Positions 5,257 to 15,269 of a stretch of DNA of 64,000 nt are shown here, piece after piece; the stretch's first letter is position 1, and each line of letters begins with the position of its first letter. Under the pieces are notes generated by a model. The model saw only the letters and a list, made by a program, of their open reading frames with translations. It was not told the origin of the DNA and did no database searches. Where the stretch lies: assembly GCA_050250895.1 (NCBI GenBank), contig JBFWNU010000001.1, positions 2,342,210-2,406,209 on the forward strand, in the 5' to 3' direction. A program made the position numbers and the translations under genes. Source of the DNA: Vulcanimicrobiota bacterium (GTDB taxonomy: Bacteria; Vulcanimicrobiota; Xenobia; Xenobiales; JADMJV01).

Positions 5257-6035
5257 GGGACGATTTACGTGGTGGGGGTTTGGCGGACCTTTTAGGTGGT
5301 CTCCCCTGGACGGGGGGGAGGCTCGATGCCCAAGGGGATGGGCTCTCTGGGGTCACGAAAAATGAAAGACACCGAGGAACGAGCTTTGCTTGGGGGGCCT
5401 CAATCACGACGTGACCCGAGGTATGGGGCGTGGATGGGTCGGGGAGGCGGACCCGTTGCGCTCCACACTTTTCCCGAGCGTGGCTTTTCGGGACCCTCAA
5501 GAATGTGGGCGACGAAGCGGAAAGGTTCCGCCTGTCCCCCGAACGTCGGAGCGAGTTTGCCAGCACGGAGAGAAGAGTCTCTTGACCGGGAGCGGGGGCG
5601 CGCAGCCCCCCAGCGTGCGCGGCCATCACCGCGTTCAGGCCTTCACCCACCAGCCACTGTTCGGCCGCGTTGCGTGCCGCCTGGAGCCACAGCTCGACGG
5701 CCTCAGGCTCTTGGTTGGTGCTTCTTTGCAGCTCCTGAACTCCTGGCCCCGGGCGACCAGATCCTTTTCCCAGGCACCCACCCTCAGGATCGAGGTAACG
5801 GCTGGTCGTCGGCGGAGTTTCAATGGCCGGGACAAGCTCGGTCTTGGAGACAAAGTTGGCGGCTTCGTTTGAGTCGAGACGGACCGTTTTAGCATGAGTT
5901 TGGTGGCCAGAGTCTCTCGGGCATTCGATGCTACGCGATGTAAAGTTGGCGGCGTCGATCCCGCTCGCATCCGGGCTTTCTTGAAGGAGGACAAAGATCG
6001 GGCTTGATGCCAAGGTCACGCCTCATTTCTCACGT

Positions 6036-6563
6036 CTACGGGCCTACGATATCACCGAGGTGGAAAAATGTGGGGGCTCCGCCCGGGTCGACAATAGTCA
6101 GCCGATGGTCGGGATAACACCATTCACGAGTTTGACTCTGGGTGGAGGGCGTCCTGACCGGCGGCTCACCCAGGACCTCAGTGACCCGATTCAGGTTCTT
6201 TAGGTCTTCTTCGTCGCTCCAAGCCTCTTCGGCCAAGGGTTCGCCATCCTGCTCCAAATTGGCTCCCGCCACACCACAGACTCGGTCCTCGGAGTCGAGC
6301 TTCAATCGCGTAAAATCGGAAAACCCGAAGTATCCCGGTTCCGTGCCGAAAGCCAGTATTGGATCGTCTCCGCGAGGCTCACCTCGTCGTGCGATGACTT
6401 CTTCCCTGGTCATTCCCAGACAGACCCCATTGATGGCAAGTCCTCTCACGGTTTTGCTAGAGGGTCTGGCGGTCCGATTTCCGATGGTGTCGAGAGGCGA
6501 ACCAGGCGGGATCACAATCTCGCCGTGGGGGGCTCTGGGCCCGTCGTCCGAGCTGTAGGGCAA
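6036..6563 (-). CDS. Hypothetical protein; paralog of the adjacent ORF (shared GMTREEV...EWCYP motifs)
   Basis: The ORF is 175 aa. INGVCLGMTREEVIARRGEP and EWCYPDHRLTI mirror IGGVTLGMSREQVTSQLGL and EWCYPNPCPVW in the upstream ORF. It has no signal peptide in its own frame. Confidence 0.4.
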   Translation of the reverse strand: MPYSSDDGPRAPHGEIVIPPGSPLDTIGNRTARPSSKTVRGLAINGVCLGMTREEVIARRGEPRGDDPILAFGTEPGYFGFSDFTRLKLDSEDRVCGVAGANLEQDGEPLAEEAWSDEEDLKNLNRVTEVLGEPPVRTPSTQSQTREWCYPDHRLTIVDPGGAPTFFHLGDIVGP

Positions 6564-7067
6564 CTCCCAGGTCTCGAAATACTTGCGTCCAAGGTTCCGT
6601 CTGTGAGTGCGAGAAAACCAATCTTCTTAGTTTCGTAACCAAAGAGTCTTACGAGCACGCGCTGTTTCTCATTCGGTAGCTCGTAAAAGAGGGAATCACC
6701 ATCCTCGCTTACAGAGGACGGGTGGCCGAACGACGCGGCGAACCCTTCCAGGGTGCCTCCTACTTGGGCCACGAGCTTGTGGTTCTGTGATAAGAAGCTG
6801 CCCTGAACGGCCACCACACCTTGACCCATGAGGAAGCATCGCCACACAGGACATGGGTTGGGATAGCACCATTCGTTCTCCATCGGACCAAAAGATAGCC
6901 CGAGTTGCGATGTCACCTGTTCTCGAGACATGCCGAGCGTGACCCCACCGATGTCGAACGGCTTGGTAGATGGCTTCTGGATAGAGGCCACGCTGGCTCG
7001 CGGACCTGCTGCCCAGGAGCGCAACAACGATGACGACAGCGACGAACCAGCGGGCACGACCGAGCAT
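6512..7067 (-). pseudogene. Probable frameshifted secreted paralog. A signal-peptide-like start (MLGRARWFVAVVIVVALLGSRSA, frame of 6696..7067) is out of frame with the mature-domain ORF 6512..7057.
   Basis: Two overlapping minus-strand ORFs in different frames. The hydrophobic N-terminus is present only in the short frame. The conserved domain lies in the long frame, which starts MPAGSS... with no signal peptide. Confidence 0.35.
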
Positions 7068-7180: not shown

Positions 7181-7984
7181 ATGAAGAAGCAGTTCGTCGC
7201 CTGTTCGCTGTTCTTGGCACTGTCGCTCTCAGCGGGAGCGCAAACGATGGGACCGTGCGGACCGTGCGGTCCAGGCGGGGGGTCGAGCCCTGGCTTCAAC
7301 CCCGGCGCCCCCATGTTGGGCCCCGGCCAGAGCGGTCCGGGCAGCGACCGGAATGCGGGCCCGCAAGCACGTTTTCGCAGCGACGATGATGTCTTCGACT
7401 ACATCCGTCAGAACTACGGCGGTAACGCCAATCAGGCCCGCCAGGACCCACGCGTCACCAGCTGGATGAAGGGCCTCGAGGGAGAAGCTCGTTACGTCTT
7501 TCAAGACCGGCTGGATCGAGCCCACGATTTCTCGGGCGACCCCACCCTGACCCGCATCACCGGCACCGCGACCAACGACTACTACTGTCACGATTTCGCC
7601 TGGCGCCAGGGTGACAAGTCGCCCCCGGCCGGCGGTCATATCAACCCCGACCCCATCCTGGCCGACCCGGCCCGGTATGGTTACGAAGTTGTCTCGGCGT
7701 CGAGTGCCCAGGCCGGTGACATCGTCGTGTATCATCAGAGCGACGGCGGCAAGGCCGACCACTCGGGCCTGGTGGTCCGGGTTCAAGACGGCAATACCTA
7801 TATGATCAGCAAGGATGTGGGCAACTCACTATTCCGTCATCAACTCGACAGCCCGCCGGGAAGTCCGAACTTCTTTCGCGGCGCCTACGGTTCCGAGGGG
7901 GTGACCATCCTGCGGCCGGGACCTTACGCTGTAAAACCGACCGCCGGTTCCGAGGCACCTCCGCCGGCTGCCTCAGGACCGTAA
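7181..7984 (+). CDS. Secreted protein with a Gly/Pro-rich linker and a CHAP/NlpC-P60-like putative cysteine peptidase domain
   Basis: Signal peptide MKKQFVACSLFLALSLSAGAQT. The RBS GGAGGACGT precedes the ATG. Cys in NDYYCHDFAW and His in GDIVVYHQSDGGKADHSGLVV are arranged like a papain-fold CHAP domain. Confidence 0.5.
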   Translation: MKKQFVACSLFLALSLSAGAQTMGPCGPCGPGGGSSPGFNPGAPMLGPGQSGPGSDRNAGPQARFRSDDDVFDYIRQNYGGNANQARQDPRVTSWMKGLEGEARYVFQDRLDRAHDFSGDPTLTRITGTATNDYYCHDFAWRQGDKSPPAGGHINPDPILADPARYGYEVVSASSAQAGDIVVYHQSDGGKADHSGLVVRVQDGNTYMISKDVGNSLFRHQLDSPPGSPNFFRGAYGSEGVTILRPGPYAVKPTAGSEAPPPAASGP

Positions 7985-8025: not shown

Positions 8026-8640
8026 CTACAGTCGAGCCCTCAAGAACTCGAGCAGCTCTTCCAACTCGGGTGCGCAGCCCCGCCCAAGGTTCAGATTGGC
8101 GTCGGCCGTGACTCGCCGCAGGGTGGTGCCCCCGTCCAGTGCCTGACCGAGCACCAGATAGTCCGCCAATTGCAGGTCATCATCGAGCAGAACGACGGAG
8201 AAATGGGGAGCCAGGATCGTGCCCTTCAGCTTCTCGAGCAGCGTCTCCTCCGACGCTGTCTCCAGGTCCGCGACCTGTAACGGTGGGAACTTGGGGTAGC
8301 CGATGATTCGGTATTGTAGGCCTTCTTTGAGAGTGCCCGAATCCCCCGACACCGCACTGAACTCTTTGGCGAATTCCTCATCAGGCTCAAAGCCTGCCAT
8401 GATGGCCGAGCCTTGGCAGCAAAGAATGCCCGCCAATCTTGGCTTGGCCACAAGCATTTTGAAGTTCCCGCCAACCTCATCGTGATAGAGGTAGTAGGGA
8501 AGGAGCGAATAGGCTGCCGTGTAGCAAACCTGCTTGGAATCCGGACGGTCGGACTTCTTCTCTTTTTTGAAGAGCGAACTCAATGGTTCTCCGTGGCCTC
8601 CTTTCGTATCGACTCTCGCTTCAAAGCACCCGCGGCCCAA
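8026..8640 (-). CDS. Hypothetical protein (204-aa ORF). The true start may be an internal Met (MLVAKPRLAGILCC...).
   Basis: Long ORF in a lower-GC stretch with no recognisable motif. Confidence 0.4.
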   Translation of the reverse strand: MGRGCFEARVDTKGGHGEPLSSLFKKEKKSDRPDSKQVCYTAAYSLLPYYLYHDEVGGNFKMLVAKPRLAGILCCQGSAIMAGFEPDEEFAKEFSAVSGDSGTLKEGLQYRIIGYPKFPPLQVADLETASEETLLEKLKGTILAPHFSVVLLDDDLQLADYLVLGQALDGGTTLRRVTADANLNLGRGCAPELEELLEFLRARL

Positions 8641-8677
8641 CGAACCTAAAATAGGCGGCCAGCTTATTTTAGGTTCG
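8641..8677. promoter_or_regulatory. AT-rich perfect dyad CGAACCTAAAATA-N11-TATTTTAGGTTCG (13-bp arms) immediately upstream of the 8026..8640 gene. This is a candidate operator.
   Basis: Read directly. A second TTAAAATAAG motif lies about 8686. Confidence 0.4.
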
Positions 8678-8848
8678 GGCCAAACTTAAAATAAGCCTTG
8701 GTTAGAGCTTCATCTCGCCGTGGCGGGCAAACCTACCTACGGTCGCGGGTATCGAGTGGATCGCGCGGGCACGCTGGGCCACAGTCATCATTCGCTCGAG
8801 CGCCAGAACTAGACTGCCACGCGGCCACCAGCTCGTATGCAAGTCCCT

Positions 8849-9262
8849 CTAGTCTTTGATTTGATGGTGAGGCATCCATCGACCGAGCTCTTCCTCCAAC
8901 AATCGGCCGAGATAGTCTACTCCGCTGCGCACCTCTTTGTTGTTGCCGGAGGTGACCAATGGGAGAATCATGCGAAGCTCTGGAAAGCGATGGATGACAG
9001 ATTCGGGGTCTGCGGCCGCGAAATAGATTGCGACTCGCCGCGCGAGTTTGAAAAGCGTTTTGTACTCTTGACCTTGACGCTGTCGTCTTACCTGTCGGCG
9101 TTCCCTGGCCAGGTTTTTGCGATGACTACGGGATTCTAGGCTTCGACGTTTGGCTCCGGAGAGCGGACGTTCTGACTTCAGTGTTCTTCGCACCTCGTTG
9201 CCGCCCGGTGCGATGGGCCGAGTGATAGTCACCATTATATCCCAGCTCGCCGCCCCGAACAA
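8849..9262 (-). CDS. Hypothetical basic protein (137-aa ORF). The frame and strand are uncertain, because an overlapping +ORF 8837..9139 also exists.
   Basis: The C-terminal half (KTLFKLARRVAIYFAAADPESVIHRFPELRMILPLVTSGNNKEVRSGVDYLGRLLEEELGRW) looks protein-like. The N-terminal half is Arg-rich. Confidence 0.25.
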   Translation of the reverse strand: MFGAASWDIMVTITRPIAPGGNEVRRTLKSERPLSGAKRRSLESRSHRKNLARERRQVRRQRQGQEYKTLFKLARRVAIYFAAADPESVIHRFPELRMILPLVTSGNNKEVRSGVDYLGRLLEEELGRWMPHHQIKD

Positions 9263-9368
9263 TCGCTGCCCTGGCCTGACCAGACAGGGGACGAGCGAAG
9301 ATGAGGAGGCTCGCGTTGCCCGAGGAGATCTTCAGGGGGTGGTGGCGATCTCTCGGACCTGATCACCG

Positions 9369-9638
9369 ATGGAGAGTGGTTCTGCAGAACGTCTGTCCCT
9401 GCTGGTGGAGCCAGTGCCGCAACTGGGGCCCGCTGAAAAGCTTCGTATTGCCCTCAAGCTTGCTCAGGCGGGGGTCGAGATGAAGAGGCAGGCGCTCATT
9501 CGCCAGTATCCGAGCGAAACTCCGGAGCAGATCTCCGCGCGGATGCTGGAATGGCAATGTCGACGAGTCGAAGCGCCGTATGGTGATTGCCCGGGGACCT
9601 GGCTGGCGACTAGGACCAGGTCATTTGACTGTCTCTAG
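9369..9638 (+). CDS. Hypothetical small protein (89 aa). Its 3' third is duplicated as a degenerate copy at 10613-10715.
   Basis: The ORF reads ...QYPSETPEQISARMLEWQCRRVEAPYGDCPG. A paralogous, frameshifted copy (YPSETREQVP... / LEWQCRRVEAPCGDCPG) lies about 1.1 kb downstream. Confidence 0.3.
   Translation: MESGSAERLSLLVEPVPQLGPAEKLRIALKLAQAGVEMKRQALIRQYPSETPEQISARMLEWQCRRVEAPYGDCPGTWLATRTRSFDCL
9495..9605. repeat. Left copy of a roughly 105-bp imperfect direct repeat (about 85% identical to 10613-10715) flanking the HTH cassette
   Basis: Aligned by eye: CCAGTATCCGAGCGAAACTCCGGAGCAGATCTCC...CTGGAATGGCAATGTCGACGAGTCGAAGCGCCGTATGGTGATTGCCCGGGGACCTGG against GGTATCCGAGCGAAACCCGGGAGCAAGTCCCC...CTGGAATGGCAATGTCGGCGAGTCGAAGCGCCTTGTGGCGATTGTCCCGGCACCGGG. 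Confidence 0.7.
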
Positions 9639-10153
9639 CTCGCGGATGACGTCCCGGTATCGAGAAAGACAGGCTCTTCTCCGGGGAAGACCGCCTGCAC
9701 GCGTAGCTCTCCGCCTAGAGCGGCGATGTACCTCTGCAGGGTGGTGAGCTGGATGTCTCCCTTTTCCAATCTTGAGACACTTGACTGCTGTATCCCAAGC
9801 CGCTCGGCGAGCTGAACCTGTGTGAGGCCTCGCAGCTCTCGAAGGCGGCTGCGAAGTACGCCCATCGGCGGCCTGGTTGCTTTGCCCTCCGATAGAAGCT
9901 CGATGGCACGCGCAACAGCCTGTTCTAGCTTGGGATAGACTTCGTCGGAACCTTCCCCGTAGCCAGCTTGTCCCGTCGAGAGGCCAAAGCCCTTGTGCGG
10001 TCTCCACTCTACCGCGACAGAATGGCCGTCAAGCTCCAGGTCCAACCACCAGCGCCCGGCAGCATCGCGCGGACGGTCGAGGTATGACTTCAGTTCCGGA
10101 AGCTCTCTCCTCACTGCTCGTTCCAATTTCTCGATCGCGTTCATTCTGGCCAC
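9635..10153 (-). CDS. XRE-family helix-turn-helix protein with an uncharacterised 90-aa N-terminal domain
   Basis: C-terminal HTH LRELRGLTQVQLAERLGIQQSSVSRLEKGD. The N-terminal domain (WWLDLELDGHSVAVEWRPHKGFG...) matches nothing I recognise. It overlaps the upstream gene by 13 nt, so it is probably in an operon. Confidence 0.6.
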   Translation of the reverse strand: MARMNAIEKLERAVRRELPELKSYLDRPRDAAGRWWLDLELDGHSVAVEWRPHKGFGLSTGQAGYGEGSDEVYPKLEQAVARAIELLSEGKATRPPMGVLRSRLRELRGLTQVQLAERLGIQQSSVSRLEKGDIQLTTLQRYIAALGGELRVQAVFPGEEPVFLDTGTSSAS

Positions 10154-10512
10154 ACTCCCTTTCCGTCAGCTCCGTTCTTTCTAAAGAGAATCTCACCAGA
10201 TTCCGGGGGCGTCGCAACCCGGCGTGTTTCGATGGCGCCGTTGGGCCCCAGGAACGTGTTGTGCTGTCGACTGCGGAAGCGTTGAACTCCGTCAAAGCCG
10301 TCGACATTCCTGAGGCTGTCCTTCTGTGGTGGATACATCCGTCCGTCAGTCTGCCAGTTTTCTGGGTCGTAAACAATCCCGGTGAACTCATCCTCAACCT
10401 GGTTCAGTGTCTGCTCAATTTGCAGCAAAGCCTCCTCGGCGTTCCCCGCTGCGGACAGGGCGGCCAGCCTTCGGAAGAATTCCTGCAGGCGTTCGGCGCG
10501 AGAAGATTCCAA
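10141..10512 (-). CDS. Hypothetical 123-aa protein, first gene of the two-gene cassette
   Basis: ORF MESSRAERLQEFFRRLAALSAAGNAEEALLQIEQTLNQVEDEFTGIVYDPENWQTDGRMYPPQKDSL... with no recognisable motif. Confidence 0.45.
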   Translation of the reverse strand: MESSRAERLQEFFRRLAALSAAGNAEEALLQIEQTLNQVEDEFTGIVYDPENWQTDGRMYPPQKDSLRNVDGFDGVQRFRSRQHNTFLGPNGAIETRRVATPPESGEILFRKNGADGKGVWPE

Positions 10513-10612
10513 GAAAGCCTCCAGTAAGTTCCAGCGCTACAGAAAATATAGCTCATAATGCATACCTGGGCAAGATGCGCCAGCGTGCATATTCCAGGAA
10601 GCCTCGATCGAG

Positions 10613-10715
10613 CGCCATCTGGTATCCGAGCGAAACCCGGGAGCAAGTCCCCATGCGCCCTGGAATGGCAATGTCGGCGAGTCGAAGCGCCTTGTGGCGA
10701 TTGTCCCGGCACCGG
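10613..10715. repeat. Right copy of the roughly 105-bp direct repeat; a degenerate pseudo-copy of the 3' end of ORF 9369..9638
   Basis: See the left copy. The coding frame is disrupted between the YPSET and LEWQCRRVEAP segments. Confidence 0.7.
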
Positions 10716-10720
10716 GTGGT

Positions 10721-11041
10721 ATGATGACAATCATGGCCGAGCACGACGACACCTTATGGGTCATCACGATAGACCCCGCAATTGAGCACTACATCGAAAG
10801 AGTCAATGCTGGGGAGGCTCCACTCCACCAATCGTTCGTCGAGGCTCTCCATCGAGCCCTGGAGCACCATCTTAAAGATCCCGAGGTCCCGAGAAGGCTG
10901 CTGAGTATGCCTACATCGGTCCTCTTCCTGCGGGAGATATTCCGGGAAACAATGCCCGACCTGGCCGTCGTGACCTGGACCGACTTGGGACCGAAACAGC
11001 GCGTGGGTTGTGTTCTGATGCTGGAAGTCACAGAGATTTGA
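10721..11041 (+). CDS. Hypothetical protein (about 106 aa from the internal ATG; the ORF track gives 10694)
   Basis: MMTIMAEHDDTLWVITIDPAIEHYIERVNAGEAPLHQSFVEALHRALEHHLKDPEVPRRLL... has protein-like composition but no recognisable motif. Confidence 0.35.
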   Translation: MMTIMAEHDDTLWVITIDPAIEHYIERVNAGEAPLHQSFVEALHRALEHHLKDPEVPRRLLSMPTSVLFLREIFRETMPDLAVVTWTDLGPKQRVGCVLMLEVTEI

Positions 11042-11088
11042 CCGGGTAGTGGGCGTGTGATACCGGCCAAGACTGGGATCAGGCCGCT

Positions 11089-12981
11089 TCACTCCAGCAG
11101 GCGACGGAACTCGGCGGCCCGGTCGTGGAAGCGGCGTTGCCATAGTTCGAGGCAGACCAGGCCCCAGAGCTTGCGGCCAAAGCGGGGCTCGGCGTCGAGG
11201 CCCGCCAGCACCTGGTGATGGTCGACATAGTCGCGCTCCCGGCTGAGCAGGTCGCGCACGAAGTCGCGGGCGGGGCCCTGGAACCACTCGGCCACCGGGG
11301 TGGGAAAGCCCATTTTGTCCTGGCGCTGGGCGATCTCTTTGGGCACGTAGCCGCCCATGGCGTTGCGAAAGACGTGCTTGAGGGTGCCGTCGCGAAACTT
11401 GACGCTGGCGGGCATGGTGGCGGCCAGTTCGACCATGGGGTGGTCGAGCAGCGGCACCCGCGACTCGAGGCCGTGGGCCATGCTGACCCGGTCCTCGACG
11501 TGCAGCAGGGCCGGCAACAGCGTCTTGAAGTCGAAGTTGGTCATCAGGTCGAAATACGAATCGCGCCGCACGTTGGGCCCGTAGAAGATCGACGAGAACA
11601 CCTCGAAGGGCGAGTATTCGGGCAGCTGGTCCCAGCGGATCTCGTCGCGCAGGGTCTGGGCCCGGTCGACCAGGCGAAAATAGCGCCGGTCCATCGACTC
11701 GAACAGGCCCTCTGACCAGAAGCTCTGCAGCAGCGGCTTGTAGTTGCGCAGGGCGGTCAGGTTGGGGATGATCGACTCGTAGGTGACCACGAAGTTGCCG
11801 TTGTGCATGGTGCCGTCGATGGCGGCTTTGATGCACTGCTCGAAATAGGCGATCAGATAGCGGGTGTAGCCTCCGAAGAGCTCGTCGCCGCCCTGGCCTC
11901 CGAGCACCACCTTGCGATGGCGGGCGGCCTCGCGGCTGACCACGAACTGCGAGAACGAGCCGGGGCCGGCCACCGGATAGTCGAGATGGTAGATGACCTT
12001 CTCGATGTCGGCCAGAAAGTCGTCGACGGTGATGTCGACCGAAATCAGCTCGAAGTGGTGGCGGTCTGACACCAGTTTGGCATAGGCACTCTCGTCGTAC
12101 TCGGGGCCCAGGTCAAAGCGCCCGTGAAACCCCACGAAGGGGCGGCTGCGCTCGGCCGCCAGGCTGGCCACCAGACTCGAGTCGAGGCCTCCGGAAAGGT
12201 AGGCTCCCAGGGGCACGTCGGCCCGCAAGTGCAGCTCGATCGACTCGTGGACCAGATCATTTAAGCGGCGCTCGAAGTAGAGCTCGGTGTGCTCGAGGTC
12301 GACCCCGTAATAGACCTCCCAGTAGCGGCGCGTGCGGGTGCCCTCGGCGTCGCGCCAGAGCAAGTGGCCGGCCTCGAGCTCGCGCACCTGACGAAAGAGG
12401 GTCTTGCCGGCCAGACAGAACTGAAAGACCAGATAGTCCATCAGGCCTTCGTTGTCGGTGGCCACCTCGGGCAGAAAGGGCAGCAGCGCCTTGGGCTCGG
12501 AGGCGAAATAGAAGACTCCCCCCTGCTCGGTGTAGTAGAACGGCTTGATCCCGAAGCGGTCGCGGGCGCAAAACAGGCGCTGGTTGGCCTCGTCCCAGAG
12601 GGCGAAGCTGAACATGCCGCGCAGCTTGTCGAGGACCGCCTCGCCCCAGCGGCGATAGCCCACCAGGATGACCTCGGTGTCGCAGGTGGTGCGAAAGTTC
12701 TCTTCGCCAAGCTCCTGGCGCAGCTCGAGATAGTTGTAGATCTCGCCGTTGTAGGTCAGGTAGTTGCCGTGGCCGTCGCTCATGGGCTGGGCCCCGCCCT
12801 CGAGGTCGATAATCGACAGGCGGCGGTGGGCCAGACCCAGGCGGCCGCTGGGGTGAGTCCAGACTCCGTGGCCGTCGGGGCCGCGGTGGGCCAGCAGATC
12901 GTTCATGACGGTCAGGCCACGTTCGAGGTGGGGGAGGGGGCCGGGACTCACGATTCCGGCAATGCCGCACATAGAGAACAA
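11089..12981 (-). CDS. Asparagine synthase (glutamine-hydrolysing) family amidotransferase (AsnB-like)
   Basis: N-terminal Ntn nucleophile MCGIAGIV. The synthetase domain carries the PP-loop YLSGGLDSS. Length is 630 aa. It is divergent from the carbamoyltransferase operon. Confidence 0.85.
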   Translation of the reverse strand: MFSMCGIAGIVSPGPLPHLERGLTVMNDLLAHRGPDGHGVWTHPSGRLGLAHRRLSIIDLEGGAQPMSDGHGNYLTYNGEIYNYLELRQELGEENFRTTCDTEVILVGYRRWGEAVLDKLRGMFSFALWDEANQRLFCARDRFGIKPFYYTEQGGVFYFASEPKALLPFLPEVATDNEGLMDYLVFQFCLAGKTLFRQVRELEAGHLLWRDAEGTRTRRYWEVYYGVDLEHTELYFERRLNDLVHESIELHLRADVPLGAYLSGGLDSSLVASLAAERSRPFVGFHGRFDLGPEYDESAYAKLVSDRHHFELISVDITVDDFLADIEKVIYHLDYPVAGPGSFSQFVVSREAARHRKVVLGGQGGDELFGGYTRYLIAYFEQCIKAAIDGTMHNGNFVVTYESIIPNLTALRNYKPLLQSFWSEGLFESMDRRYFRLVDRAQTLRDEIRWDQLPEYSPFEVFSSIFYGPNVRRDSYFDLMTNFDFKTLLPALLHVEDRVSMAHGLESRVPLLDHPMVELAATMPASVKFRDGTLKHVFRNAMGGYVPKEIAQRQDKMGFPTPVAEWFQGPARDFVRDLLSRERDYVDHHQVLAGLDAEPRFGRKLWGLVCLELWQRRFHDRAAEFRRLLE

Positions 12982-13050
12982 CTACGCGTCGGGCGCCAAA
13001 CGACCTTCAGGCGGCGGAGGAACTCGAACGGTCGACTCAAAGATAACAGG

Positions 13051-13452
13051 GTGAAAGAAGACCTCGCCGCCAATCGCCGCGCCGGGGTGATCCAGGCCCT
13101 GGTGGCGGGCCTGGTGGGTGGCTTGTCTTTTCACTTCTGGCGGGTCGAGGTGGCCTATGTCGCTTTCGGCTTTTGCGGCCTGTTTCTGGTGGCCGGGCTG
13201 TTCTCTCCTGGAGGGCTCTATCCGGCCATTCGCAAGGTCTTTGACGGCTTCGGTCGGGTCGTGGGCACGGTGCTGACCTGGGTCTTGCTGGTGCCTACCT
13301 ACTGGCTGTTTTTTACTCCCTTTCACCTGCTCTTTCGCCGCGGCAGCCGCGATTCGATGACTCGCCGGCTCGATAAAGAGGCAGCCTCGTATTGGATCGA
13401 GCGCAGCGGTCAGGTGCCCGAGCCCGAGAGCTACGAGCGGCAGTTTCGATGA
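13051..13452 (+). CDS. SxtJ-like small membrane protein (partner protein of carbamoyltransferases)
   Basis: These are the last 133 codons of ORF-track entry 12289..13452, whose 5' part is antisense to asnB. GTG at 13051 (residue 255) begins VKEDLAANRRAGVIQALVAGLVGGLSFHFW...LTWVLLVPTYWLFFTPFHLLFRRGSRD, which has two hydrophobic segments. It overlaps the carbamoyltransferase ATG by 4 nt. Confidence 0.5.
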   Translation: MKEDLAANRRAGVIQALVAGLVGGLSFHFWRVEVAYVAFGFCGLFLVAGLFSPGGLYPAIRKVFDGFGRVVGTVLTWVLLVPTYWLFFTPFHLLFRRGSRDSMTRRLDKEAASYWIERSGQVPEPESYERQFR

Positions 13453-15269
13453 ACATTCTCGGCATCAGCGCCTTTTACCACGACTCGGCCGCCTGCCTGG
13501 TCGAGTCGGGCCGCATCGTGGCCGCCGCTCAGGAGGAGCGCTTCACCCGCAAGAAAGCCGACGCCGACTTTCCTTACGAGTCGGTGCGCTACTGCCTGAG
13601 CCAGATGCAGGGCGAGCTGGCGGCGGTCGCCTTTTATGATAAGCCGTTGACCAAGTTCCATCGCATCCTCGAGACCTATCTTTCGGTGGCTCCCCGGGGT
13701 CTCAAGCCTTATCTGCAGGCCGTGCCCCTGTGGTTGCGCGAGAAGCTGTGGATTCATCCTCAGATCCAGCAGGCGCTCGAGCAATGCGGGGTCAAGGCTC
13801 CCGAGCAGTTCTACTTTCCCGAGCACCACGAATCGCACGCCGCCAGCGCCTTTTATCCCAGCCCGTTTCAAGAGGCGGCCATCGTCACCCTCGACGGAGT
13901 GGGCGAGTGGACCACCACCAGCATCGCCGTGGGCGAGGGCAACCAGGTTCGCATGGTGCGCGAGCTGCACTTTCCTCATTCGCTGGGAATGTTGTATTCG
14001 GCTTTCACCTACTATACCGGCTTCAAGGTGAATTCGGGCGAGTATAAACTGATGGGACTGGCTCCCTACGGCCAGCCCACCTATGTTGACAAGATCAAGG
14101 ACCACCTCATCGACATCAAGGCCGACGGCTCGTATCGGCTGAATATGGACTACTTCGCGTATCTTGACGACCTGGTGATGGTCAATGAGCGCTTTCACCA
14201 GCTTTTCGGAGGCGAACCGCGTCAGGCCGAGTCGCCTTTGACCCGGCGCGAGATGGACCTGGCCGCCTCGATCCAGGTGGTGACCGAAGAGGTGGTGCTA
14301 AAGATAGCCGCCCATGCCCGCGAGCTGACCGGCAAAGCCAACCTTTGTCTGGCCGGCGGGGTGGCCCTCAACTGCGTGGCCAACGGTCGTCTGCTGCGGG
14401 AGGGGATTTTCGACGACCTTTGGATTCAGCCGGCCGCGGGCGATGCCGGCGGAGCGCTGGGAGCGGCCATGTTGGTCTGGCACCAGATTGAAGGCAAGCC
14501 GCGCCAGGCCGGCCCCACCGATCAGATGCAGGGAGCCTATCTCGGGCCTGAATATAGCCCTGAGGAGATCCGCGCCTTTCTGGACGAGCACGGCTACGTC
14601 TATGAAGAACTGGCGCCCCAGGAGTGGGCCAGCCGGTTGGCCGAGATCCTCGACGGCGAGAACGTCATCGGCTTGCTCCAGGGGCGCATGGAGTTTGGCC
14701 CGCGGGCGCTGGGCAATCGCTCGATTATCGGTGATGCCCGCTCGCCCAAGATGCAGGCGGCCATGAACCTCAAGATCAAGTACCGCGAGAGCTTTCGCCC
14801 GTTCGCTCCCAGTTGTCTGGAGGAGTGCATCGGCGAGTATTTCGAACTCGACCGGCCCTCGCCTTACATGCTGCTGGTGGCCCAGGTCCAGCCAGAGCGT
14901 TGCGTGCCGCCCCAGGGCGACGAGCGCGAGCTGGAGGTGCGCGAGTGGGTCAACCGCCCGCGCTCGGATATTCCGGCCATTACCCACGTCGATTTTTCGG
15001 CCCGGGTTCAGTCGGTCAATCAGACCACCAATCCCAGCTATTACGCTCTGCTCAAGGCTTTTCAAGCGCGCACCGGTTTTGGCATCATCACCAACACCAG
15101 TTTCAACGTGCGCGGAGAGCCCATCGTGTGCACGCCTGAGGACGCCTATCGCTGTTTTATGCGCACCGAGATGGACTATCTGGTGCTGGGGCCGTTTCTG
15201 TTGGCCAAGCCCGCCCAGCCCGAGTGGAAAGAAACCAAAAAGTGGCAAGAAGACTTCGTGCTGGATTGA
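13449..15269 (+). CDS. Carbamoyltransferase (NodU/CmcH/SxtI family)
   Basis: Starts at the internal Met of the ORF (MNILGISAFYHDSAACLVESGRIVAAAQEERFTRKK), the characteristic N-terminus of this family. About 606 aa. Confidence 0.85.
   Translation: MNILGISAFYHDSAACLVESGRIVAAAQEERFTRKKADADFPYESVRYCLSQMQGELAAVAFYDKPLTKFHRILETYLSVAPRGLKPYLQAVPLWLREKLWIHPQIQQALEQCGVKAPEQFYFPEHHESHAASAFYPSPFQEAAIVTLDGVGEWTTTSIAVGEGNQVRMVRELHFPHSLGMLYSAFTYYTGFKVNSGEYKLMGLAPYGQPTYVDKIKDHLIDIKADGSYRLNMDYFAYLDDLVMVNERFHQLFGGEPRQAESPLTRREMDLAASIQVVTEEVVLKIAAHARELTGKANLCLAGGVALNCVANGRLLREGIFDDLWIQPAAGDAGGALGAAMLVWHQIEGKPRQAGPTDQMQGAYLGPEYSPEEIRAFLDEHGYVYEELAPQEWASRLAEILDGENVIGLLQGRMEFGPRALGNRSIIGDARSPKMQAAMNLKIKYRESFRPFAPSCLEECIGEYFELDRPSPYMLLVAQVQPERCVPPQGDERELEVREWVNRPRSDIPAITHVDFSARVQSVNQTTNPSYYALLKAFQARTGFGIITNTSFNVRGEPIVCTPEDAYRCFMRTEMDYLVLGPFLLAKPAQPEWKETKKWQEDFVLD

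What the first reader, a model, noticed from the sequence alone, without database searches (positions are those of the whole stretch)
9495..10715. Two-gene cassette (123-aa unknown protein plus XRE-HTH protein with a novel N-terminal domain) bracketed by roughly 105-bp direct repeats
The operon overlaps by 13 nt and is exactly bracketed by two 85%-identical copies of the 3' end of a neighbouring small gene. The right copy is frameshifted, so it is a pseudo-copy. The architecture suggests insertion of a small selfish module with duplication of flanking sequence. The gene order (small protein first, HTH protein second) and the sizes resemble HigB/HigA-type or MqsR/MqsA-type toxin-antitoxin pairs or small anti-phage modules. 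Neither protein matches families I recognise. The HTH sits at the C-terminus, as in MqsA, but the Zn-ribbon cysteines are absent.
Basis: partly seen in the sequence, partly recalled or inferred. Interest (0 to 1): 0.6.

Follow-up and report, generated by a model that had tools for sequence, protein, structure and literature searches.

The report
Uncharacterised toxin-antitoxin-like cassette inside another antitoxin gene
A compact two-gene operon, a small protein of unknown fold plus a HigA-like DNA-binding partner, occurs as a strictly linked pair in at least nine bacterial phyla and here sits inside the 3' end of a MenA1-type antitoxin gene; it is most likely an undescribed toxin-antitoxin family, though toxicity is untested.

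Summary
Two coupled minus-strand genes, A (123 aa, 10141-10512) and B (169 aa from ATG 10144), lie between direct repeats 9506-9606 and 10622-10719 (about 85% identical). The left repeat is the 3' end of an 89-aa gene that is a MenA1/Rv0078B-family antitoxin (Pfam PF18993). The right repeat is a frameshifted fragment of the same kind of gene.

In all 76 assessable genome loci, A is followed directly by B. The pair often sits beside recombinases, IS elements or other TA pairs. A is disrupted while B stays intact in four loci, including a 42-codon deletion in a sister lineage; the reverse is not clearly seen.

Best reading: a new toxin-first type II TA-like module (about 0.6), inserted with about 100 bp of target duplicated (about 0.5). 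In 29 of 76 loci a VOC/glyoxalase gene follows B; the window copy lacks it.

The parts
10141..10512 (-). Gene A: 123-aa protein of an uncharacterised family (putative toxin). It has a TTG start. Invariant residues are R8, F12, R15, L16, V39, E40, R58, Y60, P61, H84, G92, K112 and G114, and there is a DGRMYPP motif.
10518..10522 (-). Shine-Dalgarno GGAGG, 5 nt upstream of the TTG start of gene A
   Evidence: Read directly from the sequence.
10545..10573 (-). Sigma-70-like promoter candidate (TTGCCC-17-TATATT) upstream of gene A, inside the inserted segment
   Evidence: Consensus scan: one site found against 0.4 expected. This is a consensus match only.
9635..10144 (-). Gene B: 169-aa putative antitoxin and repressor (172 aa if it starts at GTG 10153). 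Residues 1-90 form an alpha-beta5-alpha domain that matches no Pfam family or PDB sequence. Residues 94-142 are an XRE/HTH_37 HTH, followed by a short beta hairpin. Its ATG overlaps the stop codon of A (ATGA).
9607..10621 (-). Segment between the repeats (1,015 bp): promoter, A and B, with 28 nt after B's stop codon. No recombinase gene, and no inverted repeats at its boundaries.
   Evidence: and direct reading. It is 97-100% identical to the sister genome L082, whose flanks are 76-95% identical.
9369..9638 (+). 89-aa MenA1/Rv0078B-family antitoxin gene, convergent with B. Its last roughly 10 codons read into the inserted segment, and its stop overlaps B's stop.
   Evidence: PF18993 E 2.2e-16; protein residues 21-77 match model positions 5-61 of 63. 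MenA1 is the antitoxin of the MenT1 toxin (PMC10435456). dN/dS against L082 is 0.26.
9506..9606 (+). Left copy of the direct repeat (codons about 46-79 of the MenA1-like gene)
10622..10719 (+). Right copy of the direct repeat: a frameshifted 3' fragment of a MenA1-like gene. It abuts the 105-aa ORF.
   Evidence: (tblastn E 2e-7)
10724..11041 (+). 105-aa ORF downstream of the remnant. It may be the original partner of the MenA1-like gene. It is a near-orphan and evolves fast.
   Evidence: No family hit. Only one relative among 1.8 billion representatives (P0170, 69% identity). dN/dS against L082 is 0.6, with dS 0.34.

Best explanation
The cassette is a toxin-first type II toxin-antitoxin-like module of a family not yet described. 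Gene A is the effector or toxin. It is a small alpha+beta protein with no detectable structural relative and a cluster of invariant Arg, Glu, Tyr, His and Lys residues. This suggests an enzymatic or nucleic-acid-directed activity; that step is inferred and the target is unknown.

Gene B is translationally coupled to A through an ATGA overlap. B neutralises A through its N-terminal alpha-beta5-alpha domain, which resembles immunity-protein folds (inferred). B represses the operon through its C-terminal HigA2/HigA3-like HTH (inferred from homology).

The 1,015-bp promoter-A-B unit was acquired horizontally. It landed in the 3' end of a MenA1-type antitoxin gene, and about 100 bp of the target was duplicated, either by staggered insertion or by single-crossover or homology-facilitated integration. 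This left a complete MenA1-like ORF with a new tail on the B side. On the A side it left a decaying 3' fragment, still joined to the original downstream ORF.
For: Shown here:
- Pair linkage. Of 80 genome loci from at least 9 phyla, 76 have a B homologue directly after A on the same strand, and the other 4 end at a contig edge. The median gap is -1 nt, and overlaps of -4 and -13 nt are common. A and B pairwise distances are correlated (Mantel r 0.56, p 0.001).
- Decay is asymmetric. A is disrupted with B intact in L040, L058, L080 and L082. There is no clear case of the reverse.
- The sister lineage lost 42 codons of A, residues about 76-117, including H84, G92 and K112. The deletion lies between 7-nt repeats TCCGTCA. 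B there is 99% identical to the window's B. The deletion appears in two independent assemblies.
- Contexts are mobile or TA-rich. One variant sits between a resolvase and a tyrosine recombinase on an element seen in more than 40 metagenome blocks. Others sit beside DUF433/DUF5615 and NTP_transf_2 pairs, inside a 4.26-kb unit with an IS481-like transposase present twice in one genome, and on a conjugative Bradyrhizobium plasmid.
- Toxin-first HTH_37 TA pairs next to resolvases are known in Tn3-family transposons (PMC7157771).
- Evidence for insertion. The Pfam domain of the MenA1-like gene ends where the repeat ends. The same topology occurs in L014: a 205-bp, 88% identical duplication of the 3' end of a convergent amidohydrolase gene. 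Shorter bracketing repeats occur in L029, L037 and L080. Three of 100 control sites have repeats, all 28 bp or shorter.
Against: No experiment shows toxicity or neutralisation. A resembles no known toxin in sequence or fold, so its activity is pure inference.

In 29 of 76 loci a VOC/glyoxalase gene follows B, and a natural B-VOC fusion exists. A plain two-component TA model does not predict this.

No convincing operator palindrome lies in the promoter.

The decay asymmetry rests on four loci, some from MAGs that may contain indel errors.

The two repeat copies were already about 15% diverged before the window and L082 lineages split. So either the insertion is old or the copies were never identical.

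The enrichment of long flanking repeats is anecdotal: 2 of 73 loci at 100 bp or more, against 0 of 100 controls.
Confidence: 0.6

Rival explanations
1. The module is not an addiction module but a regulated stress or detoxification operon. B is an XRE-type regulator, and its N-terminal domain binds A as a co-regulator or anti-repressor. The real output is the VOC/glyoxalase enzyme found downstream in many relatives. The window copy would then be a remnant that has lost the enzyme gene.
For: A VOC gene follows B in 29 of 76 loci across several phyla. P0123 is a B-VOC fusion. The Bradyrhizobium plasmid shows the order hypothetical, XRE, VOC. A has no toxin-like fold.
Against: 47 of 76 loci lack the VOC gene, yet all keep A and B tightly coupled. 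The HTH is closest to bona fide antitoxins. The pair sits beside other TA pairs and recombinases. A decays while B persists. TASmania already lists Glyoxalase-like proteins as candidate antitoxin partners by association (PMC6504116), so a VOC gene is compatible with a TA reading.
Confidence: 0.2
2. The direct repeats were not made by insertion. Two paralogous MenA1-like loci once flanked the cassette. A deletion removed the 5' part of the right-hand gene, and the cassette replaced the toxin of the left-hand gene.
For: The copies are only about 85% identical, and every difference between them is shared by the window and L082, so they were already diverged before the split. MenA1-family genes are TA components, which often occur in multiple paralogues. 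The similarity ends near the end of the coding domain, as expected for paralogues.
Against: This needs at least two extra events. No other MenA1-like sequence is in the window. The same bracket topology occurs around the pair in L014 with an unrelated amidohydrolase gene, and there the duplication extends 66 bp past the stop codon.
Confidence: 0.35
3. The roles are reversed: B, through its N-terminal domain, is the harmful component, and A is the antidote.
For: Nothing specific. The function of neither domain has been tested.
Against: A is lost or broken while B stays intact in at least four loci and two independent assemblies. That would be lethal if A were the antidote. The B domains resemble antitoxins and immunity proteins.
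Confidence: 0.05

Closest known systems
HigBA-type / Gp49-HTH_37 type II toxin-antitoxin systems (including M. tuberculosis HigA2 and HigA3)
MenAT1 (Rv0078B-Rv0078A) toxin-antitoxin system
   Same: The flanking 89-aa gene, and the repeats derived from it, belong to the MenA1 family, PF18993. MenA1 genes normally lie upstream of their toxin (PMC10435456).
   Different: No DUF1814/MenT gene follows. The downstream ORF is a 105-aa near-orphan. MenAT concerns only the insertion site, not the cassette itself.
Tripartite TA systems such as toxin-antitoxin-chaperone (TAC)
   Same: A toxin-first pair with an HTH antitoxin and, in about 38% of relatives, a conserved third gene downstream.
   Different: The third gene here is a VOC/glyoxalase-fold protein, not a SecB-like chaperone. 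It is sometimes fused to the antitoxin (P0123). The window copy lacks it.
MqsRA
   Same: A small first gene followed by a second gene with a C-terminal HTH.
   Different: B has no zinc-binding CxxC pairs. The MqsA model TIGR03830 scores 21 bits against a cut-off of 61.8, and only over the HTH. The N-terminal domain has a different fold.

Membership tests
Type II toxin-antitoxin system (generic) | Two small adjacent co-directional genes in one operon, usually overlapping | tested here: met
   There is an ATGA overlap at 10141-10144. The median gap across 74 loci is -1 nt.
Type II toxin-antitoxin system (generic) | The pair is co-conserved and patchily distributed, often on mobile DNA | tested here: met
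   76 of 76 assessable loci in at least 9 phyla. Recombinases, an IS element, a plasmid and TA islands lie nearby.
Type II toxin-antitoxin system (generic) | The antitoxin has a DNA-binding domain and autoregulates the operon | tested here: inconclusive
   The HTH_3/HTH_37 domain is present and HigA3-like. No clear operator palindrome was found, and DNA binding was not tested.
Type II toxin-antitoxin system (generic) | The first product inhibits growth, and the second neutralises it by direct binding | not testable with these tools
   Only indirect evidence: A decays while B persists.
HigBA / Gp49-HTH_37 | Toxin of the RelE/ParE superfamily (HigB PF05015 or Gp49 PF05973) | tested here: not met
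HigBA / Gp49-HTH_37 | HTH_37 (PF13744) HigA-type antitoxin encoded after the toxin | tested here: met
   PF13744 scores 30.0 bits against a cut-off of 27. HigA3 and HigA2 are the top structural matches.
MqsRA | MqsA N-terminal zinc-binding domain with two CxxC pairs, and an MqsR toxin | tested here: not met
   TIGR03830 scores 21.1 bits against a cut-off of 61.8, over the HTH only. The N-terminal domain of B contains no cysteine (sequence).
HicAB | HicA toxin (PF07927) and a HicB antitoxin with a partial RNase H-like N-terminal fold | tested here: not met
MenAT (flanking gene only) | MenA1/Rv0078B-family antitoxin | tested here: met
   PF18993 E 2.2e-16, 60 bits against a cut-off of 27.1.
MenAT (flanking gene only) | A DUF1814 (AbiEii/MenT) nucleotidyltransferase toxin directly downstream | tested here: not met
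   The 105-aa ORF has no such hit, and the neighbouring 100-aa and 204-aa ORFs have none either.
Transposon / insertion sequence / integron cassette | Own transposase or integrase, terminal inverted repeats or an attC site, and a short target duplication | tested here: not met
   The 1,015-bp segment holds only A, B and a promoter. No inverted repeats lie at its ends. The duplication is about 100 bp. attC was not specifically searched.

The most novel reading that the evidence does not exclude
A-B(-VOC) is a new family of TA or defence modules spread across many phyla. Its toxin has a fold with no solved relative, and a VOC-domain protein acts as a third, sometimes fused, component. In addition, the minimal promoter-A-B unit spreads as an independent cassette by a recombinase-less route that duplicates 100-200 bp of the target gene's 3' end. 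This is seen here in a MenA1-like gene and in L014 in an amidohydrolase gene.
Probability: 0.12. Interest if true: 0.8.

Novelty: new variant of a known kind. Interest (0 to 1): 0.5.

Why it matters
If A is a toxin, it defines a new toxin family and fold. The family has at least 192 protein clusters and occurs in 123 of 185,579 representative species genomes. It is paired with a two-domain HigA-like antitoxin, and it is absent from Pfam, NCBIfam, PADLOC and PHROGs. That would extend the catalogue of TA and abortive-infection effectors. It would also give a clean test case for how an immunity-type domain fused to an HTH neutralises a toxin.

The frequent VOC third gene, and its fusion to the antitoxin, point to a tripartite variant whose logic is unknown.

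The locus also shows one TA-like module nested in another TA-type gene. Natural 'toxin-dead' alleles exist in sister strains and could serve as ready-made controls.

Tried and rejected
- N-terminal domain of B alone. No Pfam or PDB sequence match.
- Viral origin. No relative in IMG/VR.
- The 105-aa ORF as a MenT-like toxin. It has no family hit and only one relative in the whole library.
- An empty insertion site. The metagenome scan with the 89-aa protein returned one weak partial hit, so it was uninformative.
- Leftward extension of the repeat. Similarity there is no better than in shuffled sequence.
- Operator palindromes in 10513-10640. Only a 7-nt imperfect pair was detected, plus a CTCGATCGAG palindrome read by eye from the sequence, which no scan reported. 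No operator claim is made.
- RNA genes. Only a sub-threshold archaeal snoRNA hit was found, taken as chance.
- MqsA and HicB membership. Rejected; see the membership tests.

Full report
**1. The observation**

Two overlapping ORFs lie on the minus strand between 9495 and 10715: A (10141-10512, 123 aa, TTG start) and B (9635-10153, 172 aa in the longest-ORF reading). A GGAGG sits 5 nt upstream of A's TTG, at 10522-10518. A sigma-70-like site, TTGCCC-17-TATATT, lies at 10573-10545.

B homologues begin MNxIE, and the public gene call for this protein is 169 aa. The real start is therefore almost certainly ATG 10144. That gives a 4-nt ATGA overlap with A's stop codon, not the 13 nt reported.

The direct repeats are real. 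They span 9506-9606 and 10622-10719, are about 85% identical, and differ by a 2-nt and a 1-nt indel. They have no third copy in the window. They do not extend further left than chance allows.

The left copy is the 3' end of the 89-aa ORF 9369-9638(+). The right copy has lost its frame.

**2. The flanking gene**

The 89-aa ORF matches Pfam PF18993, Rv0078B-related antitoxin (E 2e-16). Rv0078B is MenA1, the antitoxin of the nucleotidyltransferase toxin MenT1. MenA1 genes usually lie directly upstream of their toxin gene (PMC10435456; PMC6504116).

The Pfam match ends at residue 77, almost exactly where the repeat ends. The last roughly 10 codons of the 89-aa ORF read into the cassette, and its stop codon overlaps B's stop.

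The right-hand fragment abuts a 105-aa ORF (10724-11041). That ORF has no family hit and only one relative among 1.8 billion representative proteins. It is not a DUF1814/MenT protein.

**3. The pair elsewhere**

A has at least 192 homologous protein clusters. All are annotated hypothetical, and none carries a Pfam domain. The family has a DGRMYPP motif and 13 invariant positions.

A scan of one genome per species found 123 loci, of which the best 80 were kept. In 76 of these a homologue of B follows A directly on the same strand. The other 4 are cut by a contig end. Gaps are short or negative, with a median of -1 nt. A-A and B-B pairwise distances are correlated (Mantel r 0.56, p 0.001).

Hosts span Planctomycetota, Acidobacteriota, Pseudomonadota, Myxococcota, Actinomycetota, Verrucomicrobiota, Cyanobacteriota (Melainabacteria), Bacteroidota and Vulcanimicrobiota. 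The window itself is from a Vulcanimicrobiota MAG.

The pair is co-conserved.

**4. The two proteins**

B's model has pLDDT 85.6. Residues 1-90 form an alpha-beta5-alpha domain. Residues 94-142 form an HTH, followed by a short hairpin.

The N-terminal domain alone has no Pfam or PDB sequence match. In Thermoanaerobaculia the N-terminal domain is kept but the HTH is replaced by a different C-terminus. This points to the N-terminal domain as the part that works with A.

**5. Evidence on which partner is harmful**

A sister genome (L082, GCA_020431725.1) is collinear with window 9352-14331. There B is 99% identical, but A has lost 42 codons in frame, residues about 76-117, including the invariant H84, G92 and K112. 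The deletion lies between two copies of TCCGTCA, at 10162-10168 and 10288-10294. The same allele is present in an independent assembly (L092), so it is not an assembly artefact.

Among the 80 loci, A is frameshifted or truncated with B intact in L040, L058 and L080. Both genes are broken in L014 and L054. L034 has a frameshifted B, but its A also lacks a start codon. No locus clearly has an intact A with a broken B.

This asymmetry is what a toxin-antitoxin pair predicts with A as the toxin. It rests on few cases, and some of those come from MAGs that may contain indel errors.

**6. Genomic context**

- One variant (P0009) lies between a serine resolvase and a tyrosine recombinase, on an element recovered from more than 40 metagenome blocks.
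- P0024 and L029 lie beside DUF433/DUF5615 pairs, and P0024 also beside an NTP_transf_2 gene. L037 lies beside another small XRE-HTH gene.
- L049 and L050 are two identical 4.26-kb units in one genome. Each carries the pair and an IS481-like transposase, and each is bounded by 98-bp repeats.
- One copy is on a conjugative Bradyrhizobium plasmid.
- No copy was found in viral contigs.
- Toxin-first HTH_37 TA pairs next to resolvases are documented in Tn3-family transposons (PMC7157771).

**7. The repeats and the insertion**

The segment between the repeats (9607-10621, 1,015 bp) holds only the promoter, A and B. It is 97-100% identical between the window and L082. The adjacent 105-aa ORF region is 76-86% identical, and asnB is 89-98% identical. 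B has dS 0.02 against 0.19 for asnB. The cassette is thus a mosaic piece, shared more recently than its flanks.

All differences between the left and right repeat copies are shared by both genomes. The copies were therefore already about 15% diverged before the two lineages split.

A bracket with the same topology occurs in an Actinomycetota MAG (L014). There a 205-bp, 88% identical duplication covers the 3' end of a convergent amidohydrolase gene and 66 bp beyond it. As in the window, the intact gene lies on the B side and the fragment lies upstream of A.

Shorter bracketing repeats occur in L029, L037 and L080. Of 100 control sites, 3 had repeats, all 28 bp or shorter.

I favour insertion with duplication of the target, by staggered breaks or by single-crossover or homology-facilitated integration, at about 0.5. 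A remnant of a paralogous MenA1-like locus is the main rival, at about 0.35.

**8. An unexpected third gene**

In 29 of 76 loci, a roughly 120-aa VOC/glyoxalase-family gene (PF00903) follows B on the same strand. P0123 is a natural B-VOC fusion, and the Bradyrhizobium plasmid shows the same order. The window copy lacks this gene.

This is the main observation that a simple two-component model does not explain. TASmania has listed Glyoxalase-like proteins as candidate antitoxin partners by association.

**9. Verdict**

The finding is real. It needs these corrections:
- the HTH is HigA-like, not MqsA-like;
- the overlap is 4 nt;
- the flanking gene is a MenA1-type antitoxin;
- a VOC third gene is frequent in relatives.

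By architecture this is a type II TA. It is not a member of the HigB/Gp49, MqsR or HicA toxin families, because those defining features were tested and not met. I rate it a new variant of a known kind. Confidence in the TA mechanism is 0.6, and interest is 0.5.

Noticed in passing
L006 4963-5325, L016 4958-5314, L039 4860-5213 and 26 other loci; P0123; L090 5875-6213: A VOC/glyoxalase-family gene (PF00903, about 120 aa) follows gene B on the same strand in 29 of 76 loci across several phyla. It is fused to B in P0123. The window copy lacks it.
   Followed up: partly
L082 387-2575 (breakpoint equivalent to window 9352): The sister genome carries a Mu/TniA-like transposase (rve + Mu-transpos_C) and an AAA ATPase immediately left of the MenA1-like gene. 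Synteny with the window breaks at 9352. A third assembly (L092) has the window-type flank, so this is an insertion or rearrangement in L082's lineage.
   Followed up: partly
window 10724-11041: The 105-aa ORF is a near-orphan, with one relative among 1.8 billion representatives. It evolves fast: 69% amino-acid identity, dS 0.34 and dN/dS 0.6, between genomes whose gene B is 99% identical.
   Followed up: partly
window 9642-10737 versus flanks: The cassette and the right repeat are 97-100% identical to L082, while adjacent DNA is 76-95% identical (B dS 0.02 against asnB dS 0.19). This suggests recent exchange of the cassette between lineages.
   Followed up: partly
L049 and L050, 3729-7983: A 4,255-bp unit is present twice, 100% identical, in one 9.3-Mb genome. 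It carries the A-B pair, an FGE-sulfatase-like gene and an IS481-like transposase, and it is bounded by 98-bp direct repeats that also occur elsewhere nearby.
   Followed up: partly
L001, L005, L007, L033, L040, L058, L087 (Thermoanaerobaculia/Acidobacteriota): These are variant B proteins. They keep the N-terminal alpha/beta domain but replace the HTH with an unrelated C-terminus that has no Pfam match.
   Followed up: partly
window about 8200-11000 and 5800-7000: G+C is lower (0.55-0.60) than in the flanks (0.64-0.66). The stretch holds several ORFs with no family hit (204 aa at 8026-8640, 100 aa at 8837-9139), next to a CHAP-domain protein (7181-7984). It is probably an accessory island.
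   Followed up: no
L014 1553-1757 and 2992-3194: A decayed A-B pair in an Actinomycetota MAG is bracketed by a 205-bp, 88% identical duplication of the 3' end of an Amidohydro_2 gene. The topology is the same as in the window.
   Followed up: yes
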